A stretch of DNA of 64,000 nt from Psilocybe cubensis (GCA_017499595.2 CM039009.1:124001-188000), one strand, 5' to 3'; shown: positions 24,177-56,511, numbered from the stretch's first letter. Made by a program: numbers and translations. The notes: generated from the letters alone by a model not told the origin.

Positions 24177-24950
24177 TAAGTGGCTTTCCAGTGAAAATTG
24201 ACAATCAACAAGCAAGGCAAATCTCTCCCCGTTTTGTTTATTTTTGTGTCAACTTCCCGTTGGGGATACCCACCCATATACACAGCGAGCCATTTTTTTA
24301 CTTACTCATTAGAGATGGAAAACCTGGCCAATCCATGAAGCTGTCGAGTCAGATTTACAGACAAAGATCTACATTTCCACCCTAAACCTTGCACTTAGTT
24401 TCTCCCACATTACCAATGTTCCCAACATCCCAATCCAACTAACCAAAACGGCCAGTACTGTGACAACCACAATCCTGTTCACCCCAGATCCCATCCGCTC
24501 CGTATAATAAACCCCGACCAGTACCGGTATCATGTTGACATCATAAAAAGTGCGGGTAGATTACAAAGCATTGTAAACCCAATTAAATATTTTTTTATTC
24601 GAAATTCTCACACTGCGTTACAACCCTCTTGAAATGTTGTGAGAAACCGGAAATATTGCAGTGTGAATAAATTAATTTGAGGTTTACAATATTTTTGGGT
24701 ATTGCAATATGAAAGAATAAGCGGCTAGTTTATAATCTCAACAAATTACTGTATGAGATGACAAGGAATCAAGAGCGTTATAAAACATTGCGAGAATTTA
24801 TTGGGTTTCTCAATGATAAGGAGGATTGAATGGGATTTTGAGGCACCCAGCAGATTATAATAGAACAAATTTATTTATTCAGTAATAAAAGTACAGGCAT
24901 GGTATGTAAAGCAGGGCAGAGCAGAGCAATAATTACAGCAATGAGAGACA

Positions 24951-27074
24951 TCAGAATTTCTTAGCCTTACGTTTGATAGGTTGGCGCGTTCCCTTGGCCT
25001 GGGTCCTGGCCTTTTTAGCTGGTGGTTCTTCACCGTCGGCGGCGGTGGCGTCAGAATTGGGAGCAGGAACGGCATCAGCGTTGGGAGTAGGCAGGGCCTC
25101 ATCCCCGGTCTCGAAGGGGTCTGAAGGTGGTGCCTGTAGCTAATATGAGCCCTAGATAGAGAATGTAATAAATGCACTCACGTCTTTACGCTTTGGACCA
25201 GGGCGGCGTGGCGCCGCTTTCCTCTTTGCAGGGAGCTAATCATAATATTAGTGTAATGAACCAATCTCGAGTGAAAACGCACCTTGATCTTGATCGGGGC
25301 TGGTGGGGAAGGGGAGCGTTCGTTTTCGGAAGAAAGAGAGGAAGAATCCTCGGAAGGGAGGTCAGGGGGGGATTCTGAAGGGATCCTAATCGCGTTTAAT
25401 GCCATTCGGCGACGGGAGACTTGTTGAGGCACAGGTTCCGCCAGTGAAACAGCTGCAAATGCTTTAGCTAGCGCTGGTGCAGACCCATTATCTGGGGCGG
25501 GGTGGGAGGAGGGTGCGCGTGCTTGAGGAGATGCAGGTGCGGGTGTGGGTACACGAGCAGGTTCGGGTGTGGGTGCACGAGGGGGTGCGGGTGCAGGTGC
25601 ACGAGCAGGTGCACGAGCAGGTGCAGGTGCTTGAGCCGCAGCGGCCATTTGAGCTTTACGCCGTTCTACCGGGTCTCTGAGGCGTCCGTCGCGTGCACTA
25701 CCTTCCAAAGGGGACGACTTCTTGTCATGATCCACGGGCTCAGATGGCAAGATAATGTTCCTAGAAATTCATTAGCATAAAATCAAGCGCGTAAGGCACG
25801 CTTACTCTTGCCACCAAGCCACAGTCTCCTTGGCCCACGTATCGTCATCAGAAAGACCCGACAGAAGCGTCAGAATAGATGCGTAGAGGCGGTCGGCCTT
25901 CAAAATGCTCTTCGCCTCAGGCCAAGTCTTACCGCTGATTGCAATGACAAGCTTTGAAGGAGGTTAGCACTGACAGACTACTGACAATGTCCACTTACCA
26001 TCATGCAATAATAACATATGAGTCTTATCGTTAGTTCATATACTTTGTGAATCTGTCCTTTGCTGGCACGTCCTCCAAGCCTGTTGGCCTCGCCTACAAG
26101 CATACGTTGGACAAACTAGAGTGCCAATATGTATCAATGACATGTCAAAACATAAAAAAAAACTTACTTGGGGACCCAAGGGTGGTCGAAACAGACCTTG
26201 GACCTCGTCGTCTATGTCAAATGGGATGTCAGGGTCATACAAGCAAGCTGGCCAATCCAGCGTGTCTCCATTTTTGGTATCGGCTTCGAGTGATTCACAT
26301 CGCACGCTATCCACAAATAAATCAACTCATATTCGCAGAAAATAACAAGCCGACTTACAGAATTTCACGCGCATTGAGGTCGGCGAGCTCGGCGAACTTG
26401 ACACGCGGGATTAAAAGAGCGGCGTATGCAGGGTGTTTATAGCCCCGGTTCACCCTGGCACAGGCCAGTTTGTAGGCCTGTAGGTCAAGTGGGACCCTCA
26501 GATCAAATGGGATCAACTCCGGGATCAACTTATGTGCCTTGAAGAGATCGTCGGATCGCGAATGAGCTGCAGCACTCGATACCTTACAAGTATGGTTAGT
26601 CGATCTGTACATGCGACCTCACAAAATTCTTACCAAATCAATGACTTTGCCAATCAAGGCAGAATTGTCCTCGCACTTCTTGATGATATCCATAAGGTCG
26701 GGCATCAAGTCCTGCATCTCATAGAAGGACCAGAGCTTGGGTTGTAAACTAATATATGCATAAATCAATGCCCCAGGAAAAAAAAGGCGCATATACTTAC
26801 TCCAATATTTGTTGTCGGGTCATACCATCCGTTATATGGTTGGCCAGAAACTCGAGACCCTCTTGGATGACGCTCTTTACGTTCATAAATGGGTCGATGG
26901 ACTGGTGAATCCATCTCGCGCCCTTCAGAGTGTCTGCTAGTTCGGGGCATCTACAAATAACGTTAGCGGTTAACGCGCACGGGGACGGGGGAGGGGGGGG
27001 ATTCAGGCTTACTCGAGTTCTTTGTTGGTGTCGATAGCCGTGAGGGCTTTTTCAATCTGGGTCGGGGTGAGCAT
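24951..27074 (-). CDS. Plavaka cargo gene 1: DUF6698-like protein with Pro/Ala-rich tail, multi-exon
   Basis: Spliced translation MLTPTQIEK..GARWIHQSIDPF..WPACLYDPDIPFD..GLFR..WAKETVAWWQE..basic C-terminus KRKAKKF*. Many short GT..AG introns; exon limits are approximate. Confidence 0.65.
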
Positions 27075-27379
27075 GGTGGTGGATGGTGGTGGTACGGGAA
27101 GAAAAGGGATGAAAAAAACTCCCTTCCGCATATACCGAGCGCAGTGGTTATGTAATGGACACCTGAGGAGGTACAGATGTCCGCGCTATTCCGCGCCATT
27201 GCCATAACTAGCGGGCGAAGGAGGCGCGATCGCCATCGACAGCGAGCTGTCAGAGGATAAAAATAGCCCACCGCGAATCACCATAGCCAGGAGGTAGACA
27301 CCCAAGACGCCCCAGGTATACCCGTGCGTTGAAGCTTGTGGCCAGGGCTTTCGACGACGAGAAGGGGTGTATACGCGCA

Positions 27380-27872
27380 CCGAACGAACCCCCAGGTATC
27401 TCCGTGGGTTGAAGGGGGCTGGTAGTCCGTAGCAGCGACAGGAGCACCCTACAGAGTACAGAATTGCCATAGTCAAGCAGCCGCACCCAACGAACCCTCA
27501 GGTATTTCCGTGGGTTGAAGGGTGTGAGCACCAACTTGACCAGCCTACAGACTACGGAATCACCATAGTCAGCAGACTGCCACCAAACTCCGAGACGAAC
27601 AACCGCCAGACTACAGAAATACCATAGTCAAGCAGCCGCACCCAACGAACCCCCAGGTATTTCCGTGGGTTGAAGGGTGTGGGCACCGATTTGAGCAGCC
27701 TACAGACTACGGAATCACCGTAGTCAGCAGACTGCCACCCAACGAACCCCCAGGTATTTCCATGGGTTGAAGGGTGTGGGCACCGACTTGAGCAGCCTAC
27801 AGACTACGGAATCACCGTAGTCAGCAGACTGCCACCCAACGAACCCCCAGGTATTTCCGTGGGTTGAAGGGT
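27380..27872. repeat. Tandem repeat, ~97-bp unit, ~5 partial or complete copies
   Basis: Recurring ccaacgaacccccaggtatttccgtgggttgaaggg and agcctacagactacggaatcacc. Confidence 0.88.
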
Positions 27873-28004
27873 GGTAGTGGTGCGGAAGTCAACAGAGCCA
27901 ACAAACGGAACCCTACCCAAATTCAGATTCCGCCTGATGGCAATTTCAAACTCCGACACGCGTGGTGATCTCAACACGTTCCTGCGTCATTGGTTCTTCT
28001 TCGC

Positions 28005-28160
28005 TACCCAGGCTCATTGCTCGGGCAGCCTCACTACCCAGGCTCATTGCTCGGGCAGTACGCGCAAACTACCCAGGCTCATTGCTAGGGCAGAACGCGA
28101 GACACTACCCAGGCTCATTGCTAGGGCAGAACGCTTAAACTACCCAGGCTCATTGCCAGG
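28005..28160 (+). repeat. Array of 5 CCAGGCTCATTGC motifs upstream of cargo gene 2
   Basis: Five exact 13-mers at ~30-36 bp spacing. Confidence 0.9.
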
Positions 28161-28208
28161 GCAGTACGCACAGATAAATTGGAATTCCTGCTCCCCCGAC
28201 TGTCCATA

Positions 28209-31200
28209 ATGCCCCCGTATGTATCTTACAATATCGAGGTGTATTTGGTTGCTAATTCTACGTACAACAGACTACGCCCTCCTTTGACTGGTCCCAGGGC
28301 TCCGTCTTCCTACAAGACGGTATAATTTACTACTCTCCCAATTGTAACCGACCAGTCCGTATCAAGGCCCCAGAGCGGAATCACCCCCACCCATTCCCCG
28401 AACGTGCAGAGCCAGATCCCACTTCTGTCAAGCATCCTGTCTGGTGGACAGACACCTTTGGGTGGATGTCCTTCATACCGCTCAACCCATCCTTTATCTC
28501 CGACCCCTTCGACACCTTTACCTGGCAGCCTGAGCTGGATGTAACTCCTAGCTATAATACTCCACCCGGTCCCACTCTCTACCAGCTCGAAATTCATACT
28601 ATAAAGCATTGGCGGTTTAAGGAACAATGTTTACTGGAAGCTGCGCACAAAATGAAGCTATGGTACCACGTACCAGCCAGTCAACCACCCCCGCCTTCCA
28701 TCTTTAAATACGATGAGCCCTACACATCGAAAGAAGAAGCTTATCGCCAGATTAAATTGGCGCGAGATTGGTTTGCCGTATGGATGGGATTCTTTGCCTA
28801 TTTCGCTGCGTGTGCCAAATATGACAAGTATTGTGCAGGAAAGATGGTGAGAGAGAAGGGCGAGTTACTACCCCGATGGTATACCAGGCTGCTCGAGGAG
28901 GTTCCGATGTTACAGCGATCCTGGTTGGACGGGCTTTTGACATCGCCAGCGTGTGTATTCTCACCCAACACTCAGCGTGCAGGGATAGTTATTCCCTGGT
29001 ATGAATATGACAATCGGAGGCCCGAGATACAGTTCTTCCTGGACCAGCAGATTCCTGTTTTCTTTCCATGGTGTGCCATCGCAGAACAGGCCATCATAAA
29101 CAACCCCACCCTTCGCTATCTTGAGCCTCCTGCAAACCTTGTTCGGGATGCCCTTGAGAAGTTTCTGAACCGATTCCCCAGTGTTCCTCTCGCTGGCCTA
29201 ATCCTTAGGTCCTACTTTCGATTTCATGATCGCCCGCTGCACTCCACCAAACATATATTGAGAATGGAACACAGTACGTCGTTGGTCACGAAATATATGT
29301 ATGAAAAATTTGCCTCGCAAACCGACAAGGTCAAGGCGGCTATGGAGGAGAACCAGGTGGAGGCCACGGTTGCAGAATTGAGGGAGATAGTAAGCCGAGC
29401 CATGGACATGGACCTCGCAGAGGCCGAGCGAGCCATAGCAAATCTCCCCACTCACGATTGGATGGACAAAGGTGACTACCACCGGAGAGGAGAGTTGTAC
29501 GACCACGTCTCGATATTCTTGGAGAAACGCGAGAGAAACCAGCGCTTTATCATTGCGACTGAGACCGAGGACGCAAAGATCAAAAGGCTTCAAAGAGAGG
29601 AGGCCCTCCCGGGGTACAACACATCGGTCTATAGGTGGAAAAGTGTCACGACGCCGGGGGGGAAGGAATTATACATGCGAGTTCGCCTCCTTCGATCAAA
29701 GCACGAGAGACTGTTCGCAAAGGTGCCTCCCTCTCAACGAACATACAATGCAGTCTCAAACGAGTGGGACATTTTTGATGAAGTGGATTTGCCACGAAAA
29801 TATTTGCAATTTGTGGACCCCCCTCCTAGGAAGGACGGTTATATCTACGACTATCCTATCCAAGCCGCCCGCATCAATCCCCAGTCCATCATCCCCGACA
29901 ACGATGTACCCCGTGTGGAATCCGTTCCCGTCATCCCAGAACCCTGTGTAGACTCTTCCTCGGGTGGTGCGACTTCCCCTCATGAACCTCAGTACGAAAC
30001 ATTCCCCATGGACACGGAGGAATTTCAGGAGGGGCCTTCCCAGCCTCCGGTACATCGTCCAGAGCCGGGCCCCTCCACCATGGATACCGACACTGATGAA
30101 GCTTCGAAAATCCACGATTACGATTGGGACACCGCCGACCTCATCTCCAACTTGCGATACAGCTATGGATTCGTAGCCTCTGTAGTCCCGAAGAAGGAGG
30201 ATAAGACACCGGAAGGCTGGAAACACGCCTGTCAACACTTTGGGTTTAGGAAGGATGGGGCAGAACAGTTTGTCTCAAACACGGATCGTCAACTCATCTG
30301 TCAGTTTCATGACGGTTTGATGGGGTCAACTGACCGTCCGCTCCCTCAAGACATTCACGATCTCCACCCGCAAAATTACCTATCCCTTCAAGTTTTAGGG
30401 AATCTCAGCCTCATCCATCGGCCCATCCCAAATCTATTTGTTTTCGCTCATCACGACATACGTGCACCTCAGGAAGAGTCCGACAGAATGTCTGCTGATT
30501 GGAGTATTGGAGTCGAAACCCCAGAGGCTGCTTTATATGTCTTACGAGTCTTCCAGTCCCATCCTGGGCATACAGTTGTCAGTGTGGCACACAGACTTTT
30601 GTCCAAAGGAGTGCAGTTTCGAACTCTTGTCGGGCGTAAAAATGTGGTTCAGGTGCATCAACCCTACAAGGAAGTTACCTTTTACCGCAAAGTCAGCTAC
30701 AAGTTTACCAACGACGACTATGAGTCCTCGATGCTGGCCTGTCGGCAGATACTGGACCAACAACGCGGTCGTGCAGCGCTACTCATGGGTGGAATAGTAG
30801 GACGAATCGCCAAAGAGTATCTGAGCACAGAGTCTGTTCTCCAGGGCCCATCAGTGGAATTGCTGAGAAATGGACGCGGATATGTCGCTAATCCAGAGGC
30901 CGAGTTGCTGGCTTACTGCGATGACGGGCTTACAGAACACGATATTGCGATTATTATCGGGTCGTATTCTCTCATGACGGGTAAGTGTTCACTACATTTA
31001 ACTGATCGCTCTATTTAATGTCGTTTTTAGATTTTAAAAATCAGGTCGGAGTCAAGTCTTGGTTTCCTCCCCCGGCGGTATGGAATGAAATCGACAGGAA
31101 TGGGATAGGATGGCTGGAATGGACTGAACGCAACGAGTACTGGTACCAGACTAGGCTGGAATTAATTCGAAATGGCAAAGCGCAACCTTTAACGCTTCAA

Positions 31201-31317
31201 GACTGGAAGAGCCTTCTCAAAAATAAGCCAGTCCGTGTTCTAAGGGAATCGGTGCGAGCTCGATCAGCGGCATTTGTCCATGAACATATCCCCGTAACCA
31301 GGAATCCTCGTAGATAG
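28209..31317 (+). CDS. Plavaka cargo gene 2: ~1000-aa protein of unknown function (3 exons)
   Basis: 850-aa ORF extendable upstream to acceptor 28270 (YYSPNC). RGRAALLMGGIVGRIA, and a last exon SWFPPPAVW..W..RNEYWYQTRL after an intron at ~30981-31030. The start codon is tentative. Confidence 0.75.
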
Positions 31318-31648
31318 GTAGCACATTTTTCTTGTTTCTTCATTCACGGATCTACACCACTACTCACAGTGTATTTTTGCCTTTGTACATACTACAAAAC
31401 AAATTTTATGTATACTATCTATATTTCTTCGTACAGACTATTGGTCAGATATCATGTATACCACGGAAAAAATTGTTTGGACCTGCATCGAAACATGTGT
31501 GAATCAATTCTGAGCCCAAAAAACATAAAAAAAACATGAGATTGCTTACAGTAAGCCGGTTAGGCCAATCAAAACTCCGCTAAGTTTTGAACTCCGACAC
31601 CGCGCCCTATCACGCCTGAGGTTGATGTCTGCACTCTCCTTATTCGCT

Positions 31649-31937
31649 CTACCCAGGCTCATTGCTCGGGTCAGAACGAATCGGTGGCTCGCTATCCAGG
31701 CTCATTGCCGGGATAAGAGCTTCCTATCCACTGTCCAGGCTCATTGCTAGGACAAGGATTTTCTACCCCCTATCCAGGCTCATTGCTGGGATAAGGGTGT
31801 CGTTCGCCTGCCCAGGCTCATTGCTTGGGCAAGGATATCCCCCCTATCCAGGCTCATTGCTGGGATAAGGGTATCGTTACTCTGCCCAGGCTCATTGCTT
31901 GGGCAAGGATTTTTTACTCCCTATCCAGGCTCATTGC
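31649..31937 (+). repeat. Array of 8 CCAGGCTCATTGC motifs upstream of the transposase ATG
   Basis: Eight exact 13-mers at ~35-43 bp spacing. Confidence 0.9.
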
Positions 31938-31968
31938 GTGGATAGTTGTACTTCAGCAGGCCGTAATT

Positions 31969-34900
31969 ATGTCCGACGAAAAAAGACCCTGCTTAGGGTG
32001 CCATAAACTCTTCGTACCAGGTCGCTCCTTGAAGCAGCATACCAACAAATGTAAAAAATATCCTGCTGCAATGAGCAAGGTCCTGAAGGGGTTCCAGGAA
32101 AACTTCAGCAGGCAGAATCAGAACAGTAATGTTGCCAGTGGTTCTTCGCACCAGGCAACCCTTAATAATGAGCCCGGGCCTATGGACGTTGATGTCCATC
32201 ATGAGTATCTCGATGTGGATATGGTACCACCTCCAATGCCCCCTGCGCCTCCACCTAAATCACCAACACCACCACCACATCCCCCGACACCACCACCTCC
32301 CATTGAACGGCCCAGAGGACTTCCTCCACGCGTTATTAGATTGCCACAGCGCTTCCGAGACGAGGTCCCACCCGAACCTCCTCTAATTATACCACCAGTC
32401 GTGGAGGAGGAACCACCTCAGCCTCAGGAACCTCCATCTGTGGAGAGTCTGTATCGAACACCAATGAATGGCTATGGGATATTTCGAGAGTATACCTATG
32501 GTCCCCCTTCTATTACTCCTGACGAACATTTCACACTGTCATCAGTGTCCGATTCTCCAAATATTGCCAAAGACCCAGCCGACTCTTTGAGAAAGGCGTC
32601 AGAGGGAACACCAATGGCCCTACCTTCGGATTGGTCCTTGGATTCTGAGCCAAAAGACGACAAGAGCTTGCTATTCAAAAATCGTTCTACTCAACTTATC
32701 ATGTCTTGGTTTTACAACGGCCACGGTACTAAATCCTACGCTGATACCGACAAATTGATTCACCAAGTCGTACTGGACCCGGATTTTGACCCCAAGGACT
32801 TTGATTCCTCCTTTTCTACTGCTCGAGAGGCAGCGCGTCTGGACGAAATCTCCACCCAAAAAAATTCTACAGATCCTACTTTGTCAGAAGTGTGTCGACC
32901 GGAAGCTGGGTGGATCAAGGGCAGCTTTTCAATACCAGTGCCATGCGACGGTTTCATATTCGATTCGGAAGAGGAGGCTCCTCAATTTGTTGTTGAAAAC
33001 GTCATGTATCGAAAACCTCTAGAAGTTATCAAACAGGCCTTTGCAGAATGCACCTCTGAGACGTATACGACCATACCGTACAGAGAATTTTGGCGTCCCT
33101 CACCCGACGAACCACCCGAACGCTTATTCTCAGAGTCCTACGTGGCGGACATTTTCAATGAAGAGTATGAAAAGATCAAGTCAGAGCCACGCACAGGTCC
33201 CCACAGACACCTGGAGCCCTTTGTCGTTGGTATCGGGATTTTTTCAGATTCTACCCACCTGACCAGTTTTGGCGATGCTTCTATATGGCCGATCCTTATG
33301 TATATCCTCAACCAGTCAAAATACACCAGAGGGAAACCTAAAGAATTCGCTGCGCACCATATTGCGTATATCCCTAAAGTAAGTTTGTATTGACTGGCAT
33401 GTACTATTCATATTAACGTTTGGGTCATAGCTCACAGACACTTTTCAAGATTGGCATCAGCGACAGTTTGGCAAAGCTGCGACATCTGAAATGCTCACCC
33501 ATATGAGACGCGACGTCAATACAGGCGTCTGGGGGCTATTACTTGATGAGGATGTCAAACGAGCGTATGCTGAAGGGGAGGCCGTAGAACTGGCCGACAG
33601 AGTATGTCGAGCTATGTATCTCCGTTTTATTTTTAGTTCAAATGACTACCCCGAAAAGTAAGTCAACATCTACTCGCTATTTCGATTGATAACTAATGTA
33701 CAAGCAGAATGCTGCAGTCCTGCTGCAAGTGTCGCGGCACTTGCTTGTGTCCACGTTGTTTAATTCAGACTATGAATGTCCCAAAGGTTGGATCAAAGAT
33801 GGATATGCGAAACCGGCTCAAGCTAGCTCGCGTTGACAGCGAAACTCGTCAATTTGACATCGAAACTGCCCGTAAAGCATTGTTCTTGGGGAAAAAGGTT
33901 AACAGCAAGGCGGTTAATGGCTTGCTGCAACAGACCTCTGCTTTTCCAACTCGGGTATATTTTTATTTCCTCATATCTACGTATTTTGTCTAAGAATATT
34001 ACATAGAACGCTTTTTCCAAGGCTTTATTTGAATATGGCTTCAACTTTTATCGGATGTTTACTGTCGACTTCATGCACAAAGTGGAACTGGGTGTCTGGA
34101 AGGCCCTATTTAGTCACCTACTCCGGATTCTTTATACCTCTAGCAACCAGAACGCCATTGCAACTCTGAACGAAAGGTATTGTCGTGATATCTCGATTCT
34201 TACTCAAACTAACTATAGATTTAGATACCGCCAAGTCTCCCCTTTCGGCCTCACAACTATCCGACGTTTTGCTAGGAATGCTTCAGATATGAAGAAACTG
34301 GCAGCACGGGATTTTGAAGATCTCCTTCAGGTAGGCCTCAATTGCGTGTGATGTTTGATTTTAATTGTTAATGATTCCATAATAGTGCTCTATACCAGTC
34401 TTTGAGGGCTTGTTGCCAGAACCTGCACACAATAAAATTATTCAAAACCTCTTGTTTGAAATGGCGACATGGCACGCCCTAGCCAAGCTTCAACTTCACA
34501 CCGATACCACTCTGGACGAGTTGGGGAATTCGTGTACTCGGTTATGTGATCTCCTTCGTCAGTTCCAAAAGGAGGTTTGTAGTCAGTACGCCACTCGCGA
34601 GCTTCCATCAGAAACAGCCGCTAGAGGAAGAAGACAGGCAGCCAAGGCCAAAAAGGCAGCGAGTGCGGGTCTGCCAGTACCTCCGACTCAACCCAATGAA
34701 CCCAAGACCCGCACGTTCAATATGCAAACGTACAAATTGCATTCCCTTCCCGATTACGTCGATTCCATTCGCCAATTTGGCACCACTGACGGCACGAGCA
34801 CTCAGATGGGCGAAAGCGAGCACAAGAGAGCGAAACTCTTCTACAAACGGGTCAAGAAAGGTGATCATATTCGAGGTATCGCCAAACACATCTACCGAGA

Positions 34901-36357: not shown

Positions 36358-36469
36358 GTGCCTTACCCCCCTCACATCAACCCTCATACACCACCTTAGC
36401 TGCAGCCCGACACGTGCCTTACCCCCCTCACATCAACCCTCATACACCACCTTAGCTGCAGCCCGACAC
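36358..36469. repeat. Direct tandem duplication, 56 bp x2
   Basis: gtgccttacccccctcacatcaaccctcatacaccaccttagctgcagcccgacac occurs twice. Confidence 0.9.
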
Positions 36470-46730: not shown

Positions 46731-46944
46731 CACCGCTGGCGCTCATATATATTTTCAAAGAAAATAAGACCCAGTAATTATGTTTCCTACATTTTTTTGA
46801 CGTATTTTATTGGAATATAGGCTTCGGGCTTCCCTAATTGGGTAACCCCGGACTCTATATACGAGAAAAATACGTCAAAAACCAACAGGAAACATAATTA
46901 CCAATACATATTTTTCTATCAAATATGTATCAGCGCCAGCAGTG
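46731..46944 (-). mobile_element. CMC/CACTA-type MITE, 214 bp (copy 1)
   Basis: TIR CAC(C/T)GCTGGCGCT. 3-bp TSD TCT. Near-identical inverted copy at 60939-61152. Confidence 0.92.
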
Positions 46945-47104
46945 TCTGTCCTCCTCTATGGCCCGTAAATACATCCATTTTAAATCTAACCCCGACCGCG
47001 ACTACGAGTTGGCAAGAAGGAAAAACTCTTATTATCTGTAAGTAATACGTATATTCAGATTACTCCGGTGACAGCTTTTTGATTCCTCTGGTCAAACAGA
47101 AACC

Positions 47105-47534
47105 ATGAGGAAGAAAAGCGAAAAGGATGTGAAAGAAAACGACGTCAGAAGTAAGTAGCTTAAGTCTATGTATAGCATCAGGATATAGAAAGTTTATGAT
47201 ATTTGATTATACATTGAAGGGATCGTTTGTCTCCTGAAGCAGTAGAAGCAGCCAAAGAAAGACATCGAGAAGCTCAGAGGCGCTATCATGAAACACATCG
47301 CCACAGAATTAATGAAAGGGCTAGATTCCTTCGGTATGTACTGTATTGCTTCTCTCTTGATAATTTTCGAAAGAGTGAACAAAATCTTTGCTAGTTTTTT
47401 TCGAAAACAGAAGGCTGAGGAGGAACAAAAGTTACAAAGCAGAATCAAGGTAAGATGCTTAACAGTTATACTTGACTTGAATGTGCTAATACGTAATGGT
47501 TGTCAATTTCTGTTTGCAGAAGTTGAATATGTAG
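47105..47534 (+). CDS. Small basic helical protein, KDZ cargo (4 short exons)
   Basis: Spliced MRKKSEKDVKENDVR..AKERHREAQRRYHETHRHRINERARF..RKQKAEEEQK. Canonical splice sites. Confidence 0.5.
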
Positions 47535-47684
47535 AGTCAGATCCAAGTCAGATCTCGATTGTTGAAAAAACACAATGTAATTTTTCACAAAAGAACAAAG
47601 CTCTGAGGCAACGGTTGAGTCGGCGTAAAACGTTTGATTATTGTAGCTACTACATGATGTTGTAAACTACAAGAGCATATTAAA

Positions 47685-48826
47685 TTAGTGCGCACAATGG
47701 CCCCTTTTCCCCTTGCAATTGGGGCAAGATGAAATCAACCTGTGGTTTTCAAGGCGTTGGGATTTCCTTGGCTCCGGAGTTGCTGAGGTTGATGCGGTGG
47801 GTGGACCCTCTACAGCCTTTTGCTTGCCTTTGAGGCGAGCAGAGTATTGGCAGGTCTGGACACTGATTGATTCCGGCAGGCCAGAGGTGTCGCTGTTGTC
47901 ATCGCTATCGACATCGCCCAAGTCAATGATGTCGGGGGAGTGCTGACGCCCTTGAGCAGAAGGAATGGTCGCCACGCCTTCAGAATCAATTCTTGCTAAG
48001 GCTGGCTGTTGCGAACGGCGTCCAACGCGAATTCTGGTTGAGGCAGCAGAGAGTTTGCCGACATATGGCCACCGGGTGTACACTGTGTCTGGAAGACGTT
48101 GAAGTCGGGTTGAAGGTGCATTTTTGTAGTCGGCAGACCACGATTGCGCAGGGACAAGCTGCAAAGCACCAGCCAGTCGGTGTTCGTCAAGGAAATTGTT
48201 GAAGACGTCCTTCGGCACGCTGAGTACGTGTTCAACTATAAAATCGCTGATGGCGTGTTTAAGCACAATATATGAAACATTAAATCACTCAAGACTCACA
48301 TTGCCATCCTCAACATATTCTCAATAGGCCCCCAAACTACCACCAGCACTGGAATGATTCGCCTTGGCCTTTATGGACCGTTCAGATGAGGGGGTTGGAT
48401 AAAATGGACATCCCCAGCCTCTTGACGAGACATCAAAAACTCCTCTAGGTCTCTTTTGGCCAGGGGAAGCAGAGTATCAACGCCAATAGAGCTATGATCA
48501 AATGAAAAAAAGGTTGAGCCATATGCAACAATAATAAACAAGAAAACTTACCGGTACTCGTTAATGATAACATGTAGTGGGGCTCTCACAATTAACACAA
48601 AGACGTTTGGCTGGTCATTGAGGAATTGAAGGTAGCCTGGATTATGTGATCGCCGATGAAAGGCGAGCTCTGGATTCATCCCGAAAGCGCCTTGGATGGA
48701 GAAAAGAGGGAGGAAAGCAACAACGGTCCCAAAAATGTATGGCTCTCGGAGTCGGGGGTTAAAAAAAAGAGGGCCATCGGAAGGTTCTTGACGCTGATAG
48801 GCTGGTAATGGCGGGTAATGTATCAT
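47685..48826 (-). CDS. Hypothetical KDZ cargo protein (3 exons) ending in a CxxC..HCxH cluster
   Basis: ORFs 48548-48901 and 47685-48266 are linkable through GT..AG introns. C-terminus CPNCKGKRGHCAH. Confidence 0.55.
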
Positions 48827-48986
48827 ACTTTTTCCGGCCAAGATAACAGGAGTACATACATTTTGGATTTGAATACTAAGGATCAACCATAGCATTAACA
48901 ACCTTTCTGTCGGTATAGCAGTAGGTAAGAGCCTTGAAAAACTTTTTAAACCGAAAACTCACTGGTATTATAAACCTAGATATAAT

Positions 48987-51381
48987 ATGCCCAATCCTGG
49001 CGGTTTTCAAGGCCTACAAAAGGCTTTTTTACTGGAGCAAAAGCCGTTGTATGAAAAAGCTGTCGAACAGCAACTAGTTTCTGAAACACTTGCCGATATC
49101 AGCCGTCGATTTTTAAAAAGGTTACCGCTGGATAAGCCTGAGAGCTGGGAGCCTACTGAAGATGAGTTAGCAGCCATCAATGACGATGAAGCAGAAGAAG
49201 AAATTCCTTGCCGCAACCCCGAAACACTTTCACCGGCAGAAAAGGAGATTGCAGAGAAGCAGAAAAAAGAGAGACAACAACTCCTCCAGACCTTTCGTGG
49301 CGTACGTCGCTTCCCATTTGGGTCACTTGATTAATTGACAGGCTGACGTCACGACGCCACTTTTTCATTTAGAAAATTAAGCGTTGGTTTAGATACCAAT
49401 ACAAGCAAGATCATAAGACTCAGGCTCGCAATGCATCATCGGCTAGCAGTGATAGCAAAAATCTTTTCACACTGCTCCTCCAACAGCTTGTAGGCAAAGA
49501 GCCTAATCGCCCAAGGTTGAAGACTCCAGTGAACATATGGAGAAAGGAGAAAGCCAATCGCGATTCTATTGAGGCCGAGATTGAAGCAATGGACCCACCA
49601 GTTCCTGTCAATTTACTAGTTAAGACCCGGGACGAGATTGCAAGACGCCTTTTTCAGGAGTTGACTTTGGAAGAGAAAAAGAAATGGACAAAGATTGCCT
49701 CAGATGAGCATAGCGCCGCAATAGCAAAGTATAACGCCGACATTGATATCAGTGGGGATCTATTGACTCCGGAAGAACGTCAGCGGTGCGGCTTTTTTTT
49801 AATTTTGAATTCCTATCTTTCTAACGGTTTTCTTAATCTGATATAGTGCTATCGAGGGAATTGGTCCTTTCATGTCTCCAATCTTAGACGCGCTCTGCAA
49901 TATCACTGGGTGGAAGTGCACATTTATAGCTGGTGGGCCTGAACCTGCAAATGGGGGGATGTTGGGTACTATTAGGTTTGTGTTTCTTTTTTATACAATC
50001 TCTAGTTCTGATTTCCTCTTCGGTATAACAGTGTTCATTCAGGAGTTACGTCTGGAGATATTAAAATGAACTTTGGCCGCGCAGAGCAAGCTAAATACAA
50101 GAACATTTTTATTCCGATCTTCGGTGATTTTCTTCGAAAATGCTACTGTAAGTTATATACTTTATTCTTGAACTAATTCCGCTTAAGCGTTGTATAGCAA
50201 AAAGCACTTGTCAAGAGTGGGCATTGCCGCAAGATCATGGCCAAACCCCAATGTTTGCTTCGGAAGCCTTCAGGAGCGAAGAGGAGTCAATTCAGGCCAT
50301 TCCGATTAATGAATCTCATGTCACTGCGGCTTCCGTACCCAAAAAGAAGAAGAAGAACAGAAAGAAAACGACTGCGTCTCCCAATTTGCGTCAGACCACT
50401 ACTCCAACTACACCTCCAGAATTTCCTGTGGCTGATAAAGATGTTTCTCTTAATTCCAACTTGCTAAATCATGAAAAGGGTCATAATCCCTTTCCCGAAG
50501 ACTGGCCGTACATTATGGAAGATGAGGACAACAACTCCGGATACGAAAGCAACAATGCCGACGATTTAAGCCAAGCATCACCTACCTCTGTGCCACCATC
50601 GCCATCTCTCTCTGTGCCACCATCCCCTTCCCTCTCTACGCCACCATCTCCTTCCCTCTCTGTAGTACATCAAGACCAACAAAACTCTACGACAACAAAT
50701 AGGACAGTGTCAACGGCGACTCCGAACCCTACAGTTGACAAAGTAGTCACGGTATCTTCATCGGATGCAACTACGACCTCACCAACGCTAAATCCACCCA
50801 GCGGCCTGCCACCTCGCGCAAACCACCCATCTGTGGCAGTAGCAGACCCGGCCCACGCCACGTCTATGCCTAGTACAGCAGCAAAGAACACGCCCAATAC
50901 AATTTCAACAAACACGGTGTCGGAACCTGGTGCCTGCAAGACGTCCTCAAAGCGTAAAGGAGAATTGAAGTCAAAAAATCCCCGCAAAAAGCGCAAGGCT
51001 AATAGGTGAGTATGCAACTCAAATTCAATACAAAGCCATGTCTAATTAATCATTCCGTTTGCCACACTTAGTACTCAATCAAGGTTGACTACAGGTACTT
51101 CAACATCTGCATCTGCATCAGCATCAGCATCAGCACCGGCACCAGCAACAGCACCAGCACCTGCTCGCAGCCAACGCCTGACACGAAGCACCGCTCCTAC
51201 AGCCGCTCCTGCGCAAGCAAAGTGAGTCTTTATATGGACATTTTGGAGAACATTGCTTATATCTTTTTATTACCTTTCGAAAAGATTGCCGCCGGTGCCA
51301 ACATCTTCGGTTGTCCTCACCCGAAACGGTAAACCCGTCAAGAGCTCTAAGTTCTGGGTATATGCGGAAGATGATAGCTAA
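48987..51381 (+). CDS. KDZ-associated HMG-box-like protein with Ser/Thr/Pro-rich tail, multi-exon
   Basis: MPNPGGFQG..FL; PRLKTPVNIWRKE..ARRLFQELTLEEKKKWTKIA (HMG-like); TGWKCTFIAGGPEPANGG..SVHSG; ends KFWVYAEDDS*. Confidence 0.7.
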
Positions 51382-51812
51382 ACTTATGCTGCGCAGCCAA
51401 AATCATATAGCGTCCGGGTAGTATACTTCTATTAGCTGCTCTATTTTACAAATGTCATCTTTATAATACAATCATACGAATTCTATTTAAGGTTCTTTGA
51501 ATTTACATGAAGCATAGTATCATAAGAATTTGCAATACGGACTTCGAAACATCAAGTTAGCGTCGAAATTAAATCCACGCGGCAGAAAAATATGAACATT
51601 GGGGAGTCGATCTCTCACCTTGCCAACCTCATACAATGATACATGACACGATACCCACTCGACGAAACGACTGTATAATTTGTACTATCTTGTGAGTACC
51701 CTACAGATTTCAGGATCCAGTATTAATCAGTTAAAAAATGAACGTCCCGGCGCTGTCTCGAACGCGGGGTGTACGCTGATATAGAAGTAGACACATTCCA
51801 ACCACACTATAC

Positions 51813-54107
51813 CACCTGTAGTCGCACCCTGAAGTCTTCATACCCTGGCAGTTGCCAGGTGTATGGGAAGTATCTACGCTGGCAACTGCCAGGTGCCACA
51901 ATTGAAGTCTTCAGCTGAGCGATGGTCAATACGACCAAACAAATCCCAAACACGGTGAGCGGGGCCCCGTCGGGGGCGAAAAATGGCTTTGCTCGTTGTT
52001 CGGCGCGGCCGTTTGGGGCGGGAAAAAATACGTCGGGGTCGGCTCGATGAGCAGACCGCATCGGCGTTGTTTGCGCGACGTTATGGACAGCGGGCGGGGT
52101 GGATGGGGCGGGGCGACGTTGGATGACGCTCGCATTATTTCTGGGTGATTTCCCGATTCGGGTAATAGATCATTGATGTACTGATGTAATCAAATTGATC
52201 ATCACCATCAATCCATCACGCCGCGGCCATCGATTCAGCCAGCGCATGCACCGTGCGCGCTGCGCGCGTTGAAAATGCGCACTGCTCGTTGGCCTGTAGG
52301 TCTTTCGCGCAGACGCTTTGTTATGAAACATAATATTACTAATAGAGGGACGTCCTGCGACGCCGTATGCTCACCAAATCAAACAAATGAGATATCTAAA
52401 GGATTACAATGCATTATGCAACACATAGTATCTTTACATGTTTCTACATAGTTGATGGACATGGCACATATTTTGAGTGACTATGGATTAGAAAATATAG
52501 TAGTAAGATGATCAATACATGAGTAATTTGGTAATACTCGTCAAATACAGTTCATGTAATGGCTTTTGATGAATATTGCTACTGTTATATCCACTGGCAC
52601 TTGTTGTGCCCTTCCTGTGCCACTCTGGATGCTATATTTGTTTGTATGTTGTTAAGAAAGTTTGACAATTATTGCTATATATGTAGATTCTTATGCACGA
52701 CTGTAAAGGATCGGAAAGCTTGCTCGAGAACACTTTATTATCTCAATATCTAAAAATAGCCACATTTCCGGACGCTCTTTCCACGTCAATTCCAACAGTA
52801 AATATTCAATTGGGAAACATCTTCATGCTGAAGTTGCAAATAAAATTATTGCTAAAATAATGTAAAATCATTCTATATCCAAATATACCGTGAAAAAAAA
52901 ATGGATGCCTCAAAAGGTGTGCTTCAGGCTCGGAAGGTCGACCTCAGAAACTACTAAATCCATAAATTCATCCAACAAGATCACCTTGTAGGATATTACA
53001 ACACACGGTATAAAGTGTATATATTTCAATTCATTTTTAAACCAGCTACATGTTGGTATCTTTTTTTTGATGTAATCTTCAGAATTGCGTTCAGAATTGC
53101 AAAATTACATAGAAAATTTTGAATCCGAGATCACCAAATTAGATTCCGGCACTGTATACGTGCTAAATATTGAGTGAGACAGCAAATATAACACTGTTTT
53201 TGTTTATACTTCCAAGATGAATACTCTGTAGAATAGGTTGGTTACTCATATGCCCTTTTATTTGATCTCGAGTTCATCAGAATGTGAAAATAATCAGTGA
53301 CCCCTTCTTTTTTGCATCATTGATACTGGCAAAGTAGCAGCAATCCCATTTTACATTAGATATTCTTACTATATATTGCTATATATGATCACATAAACGA
53401 GATACAGGCCTCTAGTGACATTAGTAGCCTATAGGTTGAGCTAAATAAGTTGTCTACTCTGTGCTTCTGCCAGTCAAGGTATCATACCACTGTTTTCCCA
53501 AGCCTACTCAAGGTAATTACCACAGCAGACTGACTGAACTCTACAAATGTGGGTCAATATTACCACTCACCACTGTTGCATGCCTGTATAGGTAACCTCT
53601 ATGCTTTATCTGCTCTGCAAGAGCGCCGGGATAACGAGCAGTGCGCATTTTCAACGCGCGCGCGCGCACGGTGCATGCGCTGGCTGAATCGATGGCCGCG
53701 GCGTGATGGATTGATGGTGATGATCAATTTGATTACATCAATACATCAATGATCTGCAACCCGAATCGGGAAATCACCCAGAAATAATGCGAGCGTCATC
53801 CAACGTCGCCCCGCCCCATCCACCCCGCCCGCTGTCCATAACGTCGCGCAAACAATGCCGACGTGGTCTGCTCATCAAACCTACCCCGACGCATTTTTTC
53901 CCGCCCCAAACGGCCGCCCGAACAACGAGCTACGCCATTTTTCGCGCCCGGCGGGGCCCCGCTCACCGTGTTTGGGATTTGTTTGGTTGTATTGACCATC
54001 GCCCAGCTGAAGACTTCAAATGTGGCACCTGGCAGTTGCCAGCGTAGATACTTCCCATACACCTGGCAACTGCCAGGTATGAAGGCTTCAACTAGCAGCT
54101 AAGGCTG
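51813..54107. mobile_element. Non-autonomous KDZ-family derivative (2,295 bp) with ~455-bp inverted arms, nested in the large KDZ element
   Basis: Same termini CACCTGTAGT..GGCTG. 7-bp TSD ACTATAC (51806-12 / 54108-14). Arms ~51830-52290 and ~53632-54090 surround an AT-rich spacer. Confidence 0.88.
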
Positions 54108-56511
54108 ACTATACTGGACTGGATACACAGGTTATAAGGAGGGTACAGGTCAATCTTATACCTTCATTCACCGAGTATTCACCGGCGCTATCAATGCATC
54201 GCCTAATCTCGTTATGATGTCAGTGAGCCTATTTTTAAATCGTCATCCAACTAGCCTCAAATGCATCCACCCCGCCACCCCCACATTGATGTGCGCAAAC
54301 GGCGGTTTTAGATGTAGACATATTAATAGATTATTTCGGCGTCCTTTTCTCGCCAAAACGCCTACAGAACAGTGCAAAATCCCCAAAATTTCCCCTGCGG
54401 GGCCGCCTGCTGCATTGTCTGGTTGGGATCAACCGGCAAGGCTTCGGCACTGATTATACCGCCCACAGACCCTCTGATACATCACCTTGGGCAGTTGGGA
54501 CACTCCCCACCAGGATGTATCATGGCACTTGGGAAACTGCCGGGGTATGATACATAAATATAGCTTACATGGCTGGAATAATGAACAGTAGGCGGTGTCC
54601 AATGACAGTGTATATCCAGGCAGGAAATCCAATCTTGACCATCCTCTTTACAAAAAATTGCCAATCAGTCGACGAAGATGACCCAAGCGCCAATGTTGCC
54701 GAGTATCCAGAGACAAAGAAGAAGAGCGCCCATAGAGCGGACTTGTTGATATTGATAAAGATATGGGTAGAAAGATTCGTCTGGGCGCATTCTACCGCTA
54801 CATGGTGGCAGATGAGCAGAATTGTGAGTGAAGCACGAAGGTTATCGACATATTGTATCCGTGTTGGCCTCGCCAGTCCGAGGAGTGGAAGAACTTCTCC
54901 ATGACTGCCCATTGTTTTGAACGCTGAATGTCTGAGGAAGGGAAACGGTTCAATTTCAGTTATTGTGTACAGTGGGACGAGACGATTCACGCACTGGTCT
55001 ACAGTAACAAGTAGCTGGGTAAATCTCAAATGCAACACCGTATCCTCAAGATAAACGCTCTCTTTCCACAGATCATCCCGCTTACCACGGGCGCAGCAAA
55101 GTGAGACTAAAAAAAACCAATCAGACGACATACCGTATGGGTTACTTATTTTCGGTTTCGTGTAGGCTTCAAAATACGCATTTTTGGTAAATTCAGAGGA
55201 TGCTTCTACCTTTTTAAGGTATTGAAAGATTTCTCACGAAAATAAAGGAAAGTGTCGGAAGACTGCAGCAAGGAGATTCGTATTGACCTTGCAAGACGAG
55301 AGGTCGGGGAGAAATTTGGGGCGGCAAGCTAGCCTCGCGAGCCAGGCCTTCTGTGAATCTCGTCTCTTTTCTAGATAAGGCAGGTACCGAGTGATATGTT
55401 TGTACAAATGTTGCCTTTATTTATGTCGTCAAACATTGATCGGAGTGCGAAAAGAGAGATATTCACAGAAGGCCTGGGACAAACGGTTCGGATTTGAGGG
55501 AATCCTCGTTTTGTGACTCGGACTTAGTGAAAAAAACGCGATTTGCCTCAACAACAACCTTCCACAACTTAAAAAAAAGTTGTCTACAGATTCATTTAGA
55601 TAGGTTTCTTTTATAATGAAATTCATTTTTACAAGGTCACGAAAAAAAAAAATTTTGAGAAAAAAATGACTTGTAATTTGAGCCGAAAAATCATATATCA
55701 TGGCGCAGGTGAACTGCTGGCGGTTAATGAACCCAGTCTCTGCAGATGAAACACACAATGAAAGAGACATACCTGCACATCCCACCTCCATCAAAAGTGA
55801 ACCTCTGGATACCCAGATTGTCCCAAATGCAGTCTCTACATCCTCTGTAGATTCAAATCATGCTTCAGCTTCAGACAGTATGGGCGAGTCTAGCATGCAG
55901 GGTTTGACCTTGACATGGATCTTGAGGAAATAGAGGAGGAGTACGATGTTATTGAGGATTCAGAGGATTCAGAATTCGAGGGGGAGGGGGACGGGTAGTG
56001 GTCGCAATCGACGTAGTTGTTCGAATTTCACCAAGTCCGACGTGACAAAGCGTGACTCTGCCAAAACCGAACCGTTTGGCCCAGCCGTTTCTGACGAAAC
56101 CGAGCGGAGCTCGAAATATGCTGAGTCAGAAACGACTGGTGTACGAGCCTAGCGGCAAGCGGCGAAGCTTTGGAGTTTCATTTCTCCGCCGCATATCCGG
56201 CAGCCATCGGCAGGCTTTAACGTGGGATAGGTGCGGCATATATGATTAAAAGCAATCTCTAGGCAGTCAGCTTCTGTCAAATCCAATATTTTTGCCAACA
56301 ACACGCTTAGATCAAGATTGAAAGTGGATATACATAATATCTAAGCTTCAAGAAAAAAGTAAGCATGCTACTGTACTTGATGTTGACCGTTATTTTTTTT
56401 TCGACAATATTACTGAAGGAAATTCGAGAGAAAAGATTGAAAGACAACGCTCGGGCACCACGCGCATCATCCGCAGAGTATAGCTATCCATTGTACAACA
56501 GACCAACTAAT

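What the first reader, a model, noticed from the sequence alone, without database searches (positions are those of the whole stretch)
24369..54912. A ~1.2-kb host acyltransferase gene stretched over 30.5 kb by two independent giant transposons
Seen: three minus-strand fragments (337+691+168 = 1196 nt). Removing each element plus one TSD copy gives in-frame junctions (FII|LTSLW and LYI|NMIPVLV). One 1-nt deletion at ~38170 accounts for the missing base of a 399-codon ORF. This fixes the termini of both elements to the base. Inference: after the first hit the dead gene became a safe landing site.
Basis: seen in the sequence. Interest (0 to 1): 0.8.

Follow-up and report, generated by a model that had tools for sequence, protein, structure and literature searches.

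The report
Gene split by two known transposons
A mushroom (Psilocybe-like) membrane acyltransferase gene is cut into three pieces by two large cut-and-paste transposons of already described families, and other strains still carry the unbroken site, so this is a clean but ordinary case of transposon damage.

Summary
Three minus-strand pieces (54912-54576, 38759-38069, 24536-24369; 1196 nt) join into one 398-codon reading frame. It is colinear, with no gap at either junction, with a 397-aa orthologue. One base is missing in the T-run 38169-38172.

Element A (24539-38068, 13,530 bp) is a PlavakaB transposon. It has CATCA..TGATG ends, a 2-bp TSD and an intact 1234-aa Plavaka transposase gene, and at least its sampled 3' end is multi-copy.

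Element B (38767-54575, 15,809 bp) is a TET/JBP-carrying Kyakuja (KDZ) transposon. It has CA..TG ends, a 7-bp TSD (GAATAAT) and a transposase with two premature stops. It is single-copy.

Contigs or reads from three of four public runs show the exact empty B site. One run holds both forms at about 1:1. One 9.1-kb contig implies an allele lacking both elements and carrying one extra base.

Both families and their end signatures are already published (Kojima 2025), and KDZ insertions into genes are documented in Cryptococcus.

The "safe landing site" idea is plausible but untested. The window is at least 56% TE, and a third polymorphic insertion lies 418 bp upstream.

Verdict: new members of known kinds, low-to-moderate interest.

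The parts
24369..24536 (-). C-terminal fragment of the acyltransferase gene (55 codons + TAG), NMIPVLV...RVEM*
   Evidence: Colinear with P0001 residues 343-397.
24537..24538 (.). TSD copy of element A (GA on +, TC on -). The second copy is at 38069-38070.
   Evidence: read directly. Two bp alone is weak (a 1 in 16 chance), but removing A plus one copy restores the orthologue's frame.
24539..38068 (+). Element A: 13,530-bp PlavakaB DNA transposon with ends 5'-CATCA..TGATG-3'. The TIRs are 57 nt and 70% complementary (24539-24595 / 38012-38068).
   Evidence: I6; the TIR core occurs only at these two places; 293 X11 reads end at 38068 with many different flanks. The PlavakaB signature is described in PMC12730594.
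28256..31317 (+). Second gene of element A: a 920-aa open frame plus a following 103-aa frame, function unknown.
   Evidence: No Pfam hit, no usable Atlas hit, AF2 single-sequence pLDDT 34.
32071..36134 (+). Plavaka transposase gene of A, 8 exons, no premature stop.
   Evidence: P0140 (1234 aa, named as Psilocybe cubensis, Pfam Plavaka 72 bits) maps in near-exact segments over residues 1-1234. Pfam Plavaka 6.4e-11 on the first exon ORF.
38069..38759 (-). Middle fragment of the acyltransferase gene (691 nt), with one base missing in the T-run 38169-38172.
   Evidence: The X5 contig has 692 letters over these 691 positions (record 11).
38760..38766 (.). TSD copy of element B (GAATAAT on +, ATTATTC on -). 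The second copy is at 54576-54582.
   Evidence: At the empty-site joint, 6-7 letters fit either side.
38767..54575 (-). Element B: 15,809-bp Kyakuja-type KDZ transposon carrying TET/JBP, with ends 5'-CA..TG-3'. The TIRs are in register and about 130 nt long. The outer 18 nt match at 7 of 18 positions, followed by 96 nt at 97%.
   Evidence: (I3, I18). The empty site is seen in X5, X7 and X11. The interior has single-copy depth in X2 and is absent from X5 and X11.
40253..43898 (-). KDZ transposase gene of B (CxC2 + KDZ domains), 6 exons, with in-frame TGA at 41671-41673 and TAA at 41087-41089.
   Evidence: Pfam KDZ 8.4e-29 and CxC2 1.9e-36. tblastn with P0021 covers residues 1-1003 of 1038, with R and E at the two stop positions. 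Codons read.
44351..45966 (+). TET/JBP-like 2OG-Fe(II) dioxygenase gene of B (three exons inferred by eye), with an HKD...H motif.
   Evidence: Pfam Tet_JBP 1.1e-5, 25.2 bits, below the cut-off of 34.9. ORFs. The Atlas's nearest clusters are basidiomycete 2OG dioxygenases at 0.96-0.98, and one of them carries Tet_JBP on 12% of its members.
46731..46944 (+). 214-bp CACTA-type MITE nested in B (CAC..GTG ends, 3-bp TSD TCT).
   Evidence: High copy depth and loose ends at both borders.
51813..54107 (+). 2,295-bp non-autonomous Kyakuja-type element nested in B. The 7-bp TSD ACTATAC lies at 51806-51812 and 54108-54114. It has the same asymmetric ends as B (CACCTGTAGT...GGCTG).
   Evidence: The joint 51805->54108 skips 2302 nt, with 7 shared letters, in X2, X7 and X11.
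54576..54912 (-). N-terminal fragment of the acyltransferase gene (337 nt, MGSHG...LLFII + 1 nt).
   Evidence: Pfam Acyl_transf_3 35.0 bits.

Best explanation
A single intron-less Acyl_transf_3-type membrane acyltransferase gene (398 codons, minus strand) of a Psilocybe-like agaricomycete was hit by two separate cut-and-paste insertions.

(1) A PlavakaB element inserted at a staggered 2-bp cut. It is 13.5 kb, has CATCA..TGATG ends and an apparently intact transposase, and at least its sampled 3' 2 kb is multi-copy.

(2) A Kyakuja/KDZ element inserted at a staggered 7-bp cut. It is 15.8 kb, has CA..TG ends and carries a TET/JBP dioxygenase gene placed divergently from the transposase gene. It is now a single copy, and its transposase has two nonsense codons.

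The gene also lost one T in a T-run. The interrupted allele is one haplotype in a polymorphic population. Other strains keep the empty site or sites, and one sample holds the filled and empty B site at about 1:1.

Shown here:
- the fragments, junctions and frameshift;
- the element borders, TSDs and protein families;
- the empty B site.

Inferred:
- the empty A site, from one contig's alignment border;
- the DDE staggered-cut mechanism and the anti-methylation role of TET/JBP, both from the literature on these families;
- that the insertions persisted because the locus is dispensable, already dead, or sheltered by the second nucleus.
For: Host gene:
- Splicing and orthologue colinearity are shown.
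- Acyl_transf_3 scores 35.0 bits on the N-terminal piece. The homologue P0005 covers profile positions 1-325 of 326 at 36.9 bits.

Element A:
- The Plavaka domain is found.
- The transposase exons match P0140 near-exactly and without stops.
- The CATCA..TGATG ends and the 2-bp TSD match the PlavakaB definition in PMC12730594 (passages and section 18).
- Depth at A's 3' end is roughly 10 to 30 times single copy. 293 X11 reads leave the sequence at 38068 with low-agreement flanks.

Element B:
- KDZ and CxC2 domains are found.
- The 7-bp TSD and CA..TG ends match Kojima's Kyakuja.
- The empty-site joint 38759->54576 (15,816 nt = 15,809 + 7) is seen in X5 (1 contig), X7 (1 contig) and X11 (37 reads, 25 start positions). 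It is not seen in X2.
- B's interior depth is 17-26 in X2, 25-57 in X7, 0-1.1 in X5 and 0-2.5 per strand in X11.

Other alleles:
- In X7 the filled form is at about 27-30, the empty form at 37.7 and the shared flank at 70.1.
- X5 record 11 (9,106 nt) aligns 38069-38759 and then 54576-55329. It has 6,940 nt before position 38069 that do not match A's end, and one extra letter in the middle fragment.
Against:
- The 2-bp TSD is weak on its own.
- The place of X5's extra letter was not listed, so it is only inferred to repair the frame.
- X2 is identical to the window over all listed pieces. It may be the source sample, so it is not independent confirmation.
- X7's library kind is recorded as '?'.
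- P0001 itself has no Pfam hit at E <= 0.001. Of the 4 homologues scanned, 1 passes the Acyl_transf_3 cut-off and a second scores below it.
- The Tet_JBP score is below Pfam's gathering cut-off.
- Placement in PlavakaB and Kyakuja rests on end signatures and domains, not on a phylogeny.
- Kojima's two Laccaria Kyakuja families are said to have no TIRs, whereas B has about 130-nt TIRs.
Confidence: 0.93

Rival explanations
1. The first insertion killed the gene, and only because of that could the second element (and the frameshift) settle. On this view the dead gene acted as a safe landing site.
For: - Both elements and a frameshift lie together on one haplotype, while an allele lacking B, and apparently A, has one more base.
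- A third polymorphic TE (55330-56151, 9-bp TSD) lies 418 bp upstream on the same haplotype.
Against: - The order of the three lesions is unknown. No run was shown to carry one element without the other.
- The gene may have been dispensable, or sheltered by the other nucleus, from the start. X7 holds filled and empty B forms together.
- The window is TE-rich throughout. At least 36 kb of its 64 kb is recognised TE.
- My own rough estimate, not a tool result: with some thousands of TE insertions in a roughly 45-Mb genome, a few pairs within 1 kb are expected by chance.
Confidence: 0.4
2. Assembly artefact. On this view the transposons were mis-joined into the gene by the assembler, and the locus is really uninterrupted in this genome.
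For: - Both elements have repeated parts, namely A's end and B's TIRs and 3' region.
- X2 may not be independent of the window.
Against: - Each element has exact TSDs of the family-typical length.
- An X2 unitig, 38039-38796, spans A's end, the whole middle fragment and B's start with 0 differences.
- X7 contigs cover B's interior with 0-1 differences, alongside the empty form.
Confidence: 0.02
3. The three pieces are not one gene. They would instead be fragments of paralogues, or gene pieces captured and carried by the transposons.
For: Only the N-terminal piece has a Pfam hit. Acyl_transf_3 relatives are numerous (19 representative hits).
Against: - The pieces do not overlap, are in order and on one strand, and lie outside the TIRs.
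- They add up to the orthologue's full length, with no gap at the joins.
- A single X5 contig carries the middle and N-terminal pieces directly joined.
Confidence: 0.02
4. The elements are Starship-type giant cargo transposons rather than DDE cut-and-paste elements.
For: Their size is above 13 kb, and each carries several genes of unknown function.
Against: - None of the 63 window translations scanned against Pfam gave a DUF3435 / tyrosine-recombinase hit.
- Both elements encode DDE-type transposases, Plavaka and KDZ.
- Both have TIRs and TSDs typical of those families.
Confidence: 0.01

Closest known systems
PlavakaB transposons (CMCT clade), as defined by Kojima 2025, PMC12730594 (passages and sections 11 and 18 read)
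   Same: Element A shares the Plavaka transposase domain, the 5'-CATCA..TGATG-3' termini, a 2-bp TSD and an Agaricales host.
   Different: - No TET/JBP gene was recognised in A. Instead it has an unknown gene of 920 aa or more.
- Psilocybe is not mentioned in that paper (0 occurrences).
- Its Table S1 and Figure S2 are supplements and could not be seen.
- The phylogenetic placement of A was not tested.
TET+ Kyakuja families (Kyakuja-1_LB and -2_LB of Laccaria bicolor, and others in Agaricomycotina), Kojima 2025; KDZ class of Iyer et al. 2014 (known only through citation; the paper is not held)
   Same: Element B shares the KDZ transposase with a CxC domain, an adjacent TET/JBP-like dioxygenase, a 7-bp TSD and 5'-CA..TG-3' termini.
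   Different: - B has in-register TIRs about 130 nt long plus further subterminal inverted repeats, whereas the two Laccaria families are described as lacking TIRs.
- B's transposase has two nonsense codons.
- A 2.3-kb non-autonomous relative with the same asymmetric ends is nested inside it.
Cryptococcus KDZ1, KDZ2 and KDZ3 'gigantic' DNA transposons (PMC11343200, passages read)
   Same: They are large (9-11 kb) KDZ elements with TIRs (236 bp in KDZ1) and TSDs, and they have been caught inserting into a host gene (FRR1).
   Different: - They belong to the Dileera clade, carry a CxC1 domain and make 8-bp TSDs.
- No TET/JBP is reported in the passages read.
- Their mobility was shown experimentally, whereas here it is inferred from presence/absence polymorphism.
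Starship giant transposons of Pezizomycotina (recalled, not looked up)
   Same: They are large fungal mobile elements that carry cargo genes.
   Different: - They use a DUF3435 tyrosine recombinase, which was not found here.
- They are much larger.
- They occur in ascomycetes.

Membership tests
PlavakaB (Plavaka, CMCT clade) | Encodes a Plavaka transposase (Pfam PF18759) | tested here: met
   E 6.4e-11 on the ORF 31795-33393. P0140, which maps near-exactly on 32071-36134, scores 72.3 bits.
PlavakaB (Plavaka, CMCT clade) | Termini 5'-CATCA..TGATG-3' | tested here: met
   24539 CATCA ... TGATG 38068. The border at 38068 is confirmed by many-flank loose ends.
PlavakaB (Plavaka, CMCT clade) | 2- or 3-bp TSD | tested here: met
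   GA/GA at 24537-24538 and 38069-38070. Removing A plus one copy restores the orthologue's frame.
PlavakaB (Plavaka, CMCT clade) | Transposase falls in the PlavakaB clade of the phylogeny | not tested
   No reference set of PlavakaA/B transposases was available, because the supplements are closed.
Kyakuja (KDZ class) | KDZ transposase domain with an N-terminal CxC cluster | tested here: met
   KDZ 8.4e-29 and CxC2 1.9e-36. The near-identical P0020 scores KDZ 184 bits and CxC2 124 bits.
Kyakuja (KDZ class) | 7-bp TSD (Zisupton and Dileera make 8 bp) | tested here: met
   GAATAAT at 38760-38766 and 54576-54582, with the neighbouring bases differing. At the empty-site joint 6-7 letters are shared. 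The nested relative also has a 7-bp TSD.
Kyakuja (KDZ class) | Termini 5'-CA..TG-3' | tested here: met
   38767 CACCTG ... GGCTG 54575.
Kyakuja (KDZ class) | Carries a TET/JBP dioxygenase gene (TET+ families) | tested here: inconclusive
   Tet_JBP E 1.1e-5 but 25.2 bits, under the cut-off of 34.9. An HKD...H motif was read. The Atlas neighbours are 2OG dioxygenases, one cluster with Tet_JBP on 12% of members. There were no PDB sequence hits.
Kyakuja (KDZ class) | Transposase falls in the Kyakuja clade rather than Dileera or Zisupton | not tested
   No labelled reference sequences were held. The nearest named hits are unclassified 'CxC2-like KDZ' proteins of Psilocybe, Galerina, Gymnopilus and Laccaria.
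Acyl_transf_3 (PF01757) membrane acyltransferases | Match to the Pfam profile above the gathering score | tested here: met
   The N-terminal fragment scores 35.0 bits against 31, but covers only profile positions 2-89 of 326. The other fragments have no hit. Homologue P0005 scores 36.9 bits over positions 1-325 and P0002 scores 24.3. P0001 and P0003 have no hit.
Starship giant transposons | DUF3435 tyrosine-recombinase 'captain' gene near one end | tested here: not met
   No such hit in any of the 63 window translations scanned.

The most novel reading that the evidence does not exclude
Element B and its nested 2.3-kb relative form an autonomous / non-autonomous Kyakuja pair. They share asymmetric ends (CACCTGTAGT...GGCTG) and, unlike the described Kyakuja families, have real TIRs.

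B is a single-copy, TET/JBP-bearing element that is present, absent or heterozygous among conspecific strains, even though its transposase is truncated after the KDZ domain. This would point to recent mobilisation of Kyakuja elements in this species, possibly in trans. It would also offer a natural system for testing whether transposon-borne TET/JBP protects an element from methylation silencing.
Probability: 0.3. Interest if true: 0.45.

Novelty: new member of a known kind. Interest (0 to 1): 0.27.

Why it matters
The locus gives base-exact borders, TSDs and gene content for one PlavakaB element and one TET/JBP-carrying Kyakuja element. No paper in the library searched links the genus to these families. 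In one search, 24 papers held at least 2 of the 4 terms, and none of the 10 listed mentions Psilocybe. In one search, Kojima 2025 has 0 occurrences of the name.

The empty site is documented in other strains and the insertion is heterozygous in one. This is useful for TE annotation, for strain markers, and as a starting point for studying the mobility of TET-bearing transposons. It does not reveal a new mechanism. TE-split genes and nested TEs are commonplace, and both families were already characterised.

Tried and rejected
- Whole-genome search: no genome is held for this window.
- Annotated intact allele: the word-indexed search for longer proteins returned only P0001, 59% identical and unnamed. 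No annotated uninterrupted protein of the same species was found.
- 920-aa ORF of A: no Pfam hit, no usable Atlas hit, and a single-sequence AF2 model with mean pLDDT 34 that could not be used for a fold search. Whether it is a distant 'PE-type' TET therefore stays open.
- TET exons against PDB sequences: no hits.
- Extra exon ORFs against Pfam: only sub-threshold noise.
- CpG depletion as an age or silencing signal: CpG observed/expected is 0.96 for A and 0.80 for B, against 0.73-0.98 for host segments, so it is not informative.
- Further copies of the A or B termini in the window: none.
- Iyer et al. 2014: not held. Element sizes in Kojima's Table S1 are in closed supplements.
- TIR identity (A 70%, B 97%) as a clock: rejected, because the TIRs of DNA transposons are not identical at insertion.
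- Starship reading: rejected, as no captain gene was found.
Full report
OBSERVATION

On the minus strand an ATG lies at 54912 and a TAG stop at 24371-24369. The open frame from the ATG runs to ...GHRLLFII at 54577. It resumes at 38760/38759 with LTSLW, leaves the frame near 38170, continues in another frame to ...HTYIQLYI at 38069, and resumes at 24536 with NMIPVLV...RVEM*.

Joined in a script, the pieces give 1196 nt. With X placed at the T-run 38169-38172, the product is 398 aa plus a single terminal stop.

An all-against-all HMMER search with the middle piece found 19 proteins. The best is P0001 (397 aa, E 9e-65), which aligns residues 1-198 of the middle piece to its own residues 113-309. 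This is what is expected if a 112-aa N-terminal piece precedes it. The global alignment of the read-through product to P0001 has 250 identities in 400 columns and three small gaps, none near a junction. The sequences read ...LLFIV|LTVLW... and ...QMYV|NMIPILV... in P0001, against ...LLFII|LTSLW... and ...QLYI|NMIPVLV... here. At the frameshift, P0001 reads CTFVFLTIPY.

The N-terminal piece passes Pfam's Acyl_transf_3 cut-off, at 35.0 bits against 31. The other pieces have no hit. Of 4 homologues scanned, P0005 passes (36.9 bits over the full profile), P0002 is below the cut-off, and P0001 and P0003 have no hit. The gene therefore belongs to a divergent branch of that family.

ELEMENT A (24539-38068, 13,530 bp)

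- Ends. The ends are CATCA...TGATG. The TIRs are in register, 57 nt long and 70% complementary. The TIR core occurs only at these two places in the window.
- TSD. The flanking dinucleotide GA (TC on the minus strand) is duplicated.
- Transposase. Pfam finds a Plavaka transposase domain. A 1234-aa protein named as Psilocybe cubensis (P0140) maps onto 32071-36134 as 8 exons. The segments are near-exact and the exons contain no stop.
- Published signature. Kojima 2025 (PMC12730594; I read sections 11 and 18 and the passages found) defines PlavakaB by exactly these features: CATCA..TGATG ends and 2-3-bp TSDs.
- Copy number. The sampled 3' end of A (36000-38068) is multi-copy. In the laid runs its depth over those 2 kb is roughly 10 to 30 times single copy. 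In X11, 293 reads leave the sequence exactly after 38068 into many different flanks.
- Other content. A also holds an unexplained ORF of 920 aa or more. A 13-mer, CCAGGCTCATTGC, is repeated 5 times just upstream of that ORF and 8 times just upstream of the transposase gene. All 13 copies are on the + strand, where 0.08 would be expected by chance.

ELEMENT B (38767-54575, 15,809 bp)

- Ends and TSD. The duplicated target is 7 bp, GAATAAT (38760-38766 and 54576-54582), and the ends are CA...TG.
- TIRs. The TIRs are in register from the first base. They match at 7 of the outer 18 positions, followed by 96 nt at 97%.
- Transposase. The gene (43898->40253, minus strand) has CxC2 and KDZ domains. 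It is colinear with P0021, a 1038-aa Psilocybe cubensis protein at 80-90% identity, over 6 exons.
- Premature stops. There is a TGA at 41671-41673 where P0021 has R, and a TAA at 41087-41089 where P0021 has E. A 648-aa database protein, P0020, ends at the first stop and keeps the whole KDZ domain.
- Dioxygenase. Divergently placed is a three-exon 2OG-Fe(II) dioxygenase gene with an HKD...H motif. Its Tet_JBP hit is E 1e-5 and 25 bits, under the cut-off of 34.9. The Atlas places it among basidiomycete 2OG dioxygenase clusters.
- Published signature. A 7-bp TSD, CA..TG ends and a TET gene are Kojima's Kyakuja, whereas Zisupton and Dileera make 8-bp TSDs. One difference is that his two Laccaria families are said to lack TIRs.

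Two elements are nested inside B:
- A 214-bp CACTA-type MITE (46731-46944, TSD TCT). A second copy lies at 60939-61152 with TSD TAA.
- A 2,295-bp non-autonomous element (51813-54107, 7-bp TSD ACTATAC). It has the same asymmetric ends as B.

OTHER STRAINS

Nine runs hold half or more of the words of the host flank 19700-24536. I laid 4 of the 12 listed runs on 36000-55500.

- The empty B site. The joint 38759->54576 skips 15,816 nt, which is 15,809 plus 7, and 6-7 letters fit either side. It is present in X5 (1 contig), X7 (1 contig, short side of 24 nt) and X11 (37 raw reads from 25 start positions). It is absent from X2.
- B's interior. Depth is 17-26 in X2, the same as the flanking single-copy contigs at 16.8-24.2. 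It is 25-57 in X7, 0-1.1 in X5 and 0-2.5 per strand in X11.
- Both forms in one sample. In X7 the filled form is at about 27-30, the empty form at 37.7 and the shared flank at 70.1. Both alleles are therefore present at about 1:1, as expected for two nuclei or two strains. The library kind of X7 is recorded as '?'.
- An allele without either element. X5's record 11 (9,106 nt) aligns 38069-38759 and then directly 54576-55329. The alignment starts exactly at the first base outside A, and 6,940 nt of the contig lie before that point. I infer from this that the allele lacks A as well. The contig has 692 letters for those 691 positions, that is, one extra base. The place of that base was not listed.
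- X2. An X2 unitig spanning 38039-38796 has 0 differences from the window. X2 is identical over all listed pieces and may be the source sample.

INTERPRETATION

The 'safe landing site' step is not shown, because the order of A, B and the frameshift is unknown. Several facts point to a simpler reading:
- The same haplotype has an 822-bp TE with a 9-bp TSD (55330-56151) 418 bp upstream of the ATG. X5's contig also appears to lack it.
- A 417-bp MITE lies 190 bp downstream of the stop.
- Recognised TEs make up at least 36 kb of the 64-kb window.

Relaxed or sheltered selection on a dispensable locus is therefore sufficient.

These are not Starships. None of the 63 window translations hit a tyrosine recombinase.

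NOVELTY

Both families, their end signatures and the TET association are in print (Kojima 2025; Iyer et al. 2014, cited there but not held). 'Gigantic' KDZ elements inserting into a gene are documented in Cryptococcus (PMC11343200, passages read).

New here are the Psilocybe members and their exact borders, the TIRs of a Kyakuja element, its cognate non-autonomous partner, and the presence/absence polymorphism. I could not see Kojima's supplements (Table S1, Figure S2, Data S1), which may already list similar elements or their sizes.

SCORES

Interest is 0.27. Novelty is a new member of a known kind.

Noticed in passing
window 28008-28156 and 31653-31937: The 13-mer CCAGGCTCATTGC occurs 13 times in the window (0.08 expected by chance), always on the + strand. 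The copies form two arrays with a spacing of about 35-39 bp. One array lies just upstream of the 920-aa ORF and the other just upstream of the Plavaka transposase gene of element A. This is a candidate shared promoter or binding array.
   Followed up: partly
window 51813-54107: A 2,295-bp non-autonomous Kyakuja-type element is nested in B. It has a 7-bp TSD (ACTATAC), TIRs of about 440 bp and the same asymmetric end motifs as B. Copies of the surrounding sequence that lack it exist in X2, X7 and X11.
   Followed up: yes
window 46731-46944 and 60939-61152: A 214-bp foldback MITE with CAC..GTG ends and 3-bp TSDs (TCT and TAA) has one copy inside B. Its copy number in all four runs is very high, with depth 256-2288 in its bin.
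   Followed up: partly
window 55330-56151: An 822-bp element with TAGSCTCG ends and a 9-bp TSD GCGGCAAGC (55321-55329 and 56152-56160) lies 418 bp upstream of the acyltransferase ATG. It is multi-copy, with loose ends at 55329/55330. X5's contig leaves the window sequence there, so it is probably polymorphic as well. The TSD was read by eye.
   Followed up: partly
window 23763-24179 and 10710-11226: There are two small MITE-like elements. One is 417 bp with 50-nt TIRs at 96%, 190 bp downstream of the acyltransferase stop. The other is 517 bp with perfect 59-nt TIRs.
   Followed up: no
window 2-5113 (minus strand, runs off the window): An uninterrupted 1704-aa frame carries gag, zinc knuckle, aspartyl protease, RT and RNase H domains. 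It looks like an intact LTR-retrotransposon polyprotein.
   Followed up: no
window 12190-18770: Three consecutive long + strand frames (549, 863 and 752 aa) are rich in Ser, Pro and Gly and have GC of 55-57% against about 44% around them. Only one weak sub-threshold Pfam hit (Etd1, 18.9 bits against a cut-off of 27.5) was found. They look like one large disordered host protein gene rather than a TE.
   Followed up: partly
window 28256-31317: The second gene of the Plavaka element (920 aa or more) matches no family. It has no Pfam hit, no usable Atlas hit, and a single-sequence AF2 model with pLDDT 34. Whether it is a remote 'PE-type' TET/JBP, as in some PlavakaB families, is open.
   Followed up: partly
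window 41671-41673: The first nonsense codon of B's transposase (TGA where the relative has R) falls after the end of the KDZ domain. A database protein of 648 aa (P0020) ends exactly there. The truncated product would keep CxC2 and the full catalytic domain.
   Followed up: partly
window 36358-37012: A's 3' region holds tandem arrays: a perfect 56-bp duplication and GC-rich units of 20 and 26 bp. Their copy number differs among family copies in other runs, with joints that skip 56 and 227 nt.
   Followed up: no
window 57296-59845: Inverted repeats totalling about 105 nt (three adjacent arms at 83-86%) bracket 2.5 kb. This is probably another non-autonomous DNA transposon.
   Followed up: no
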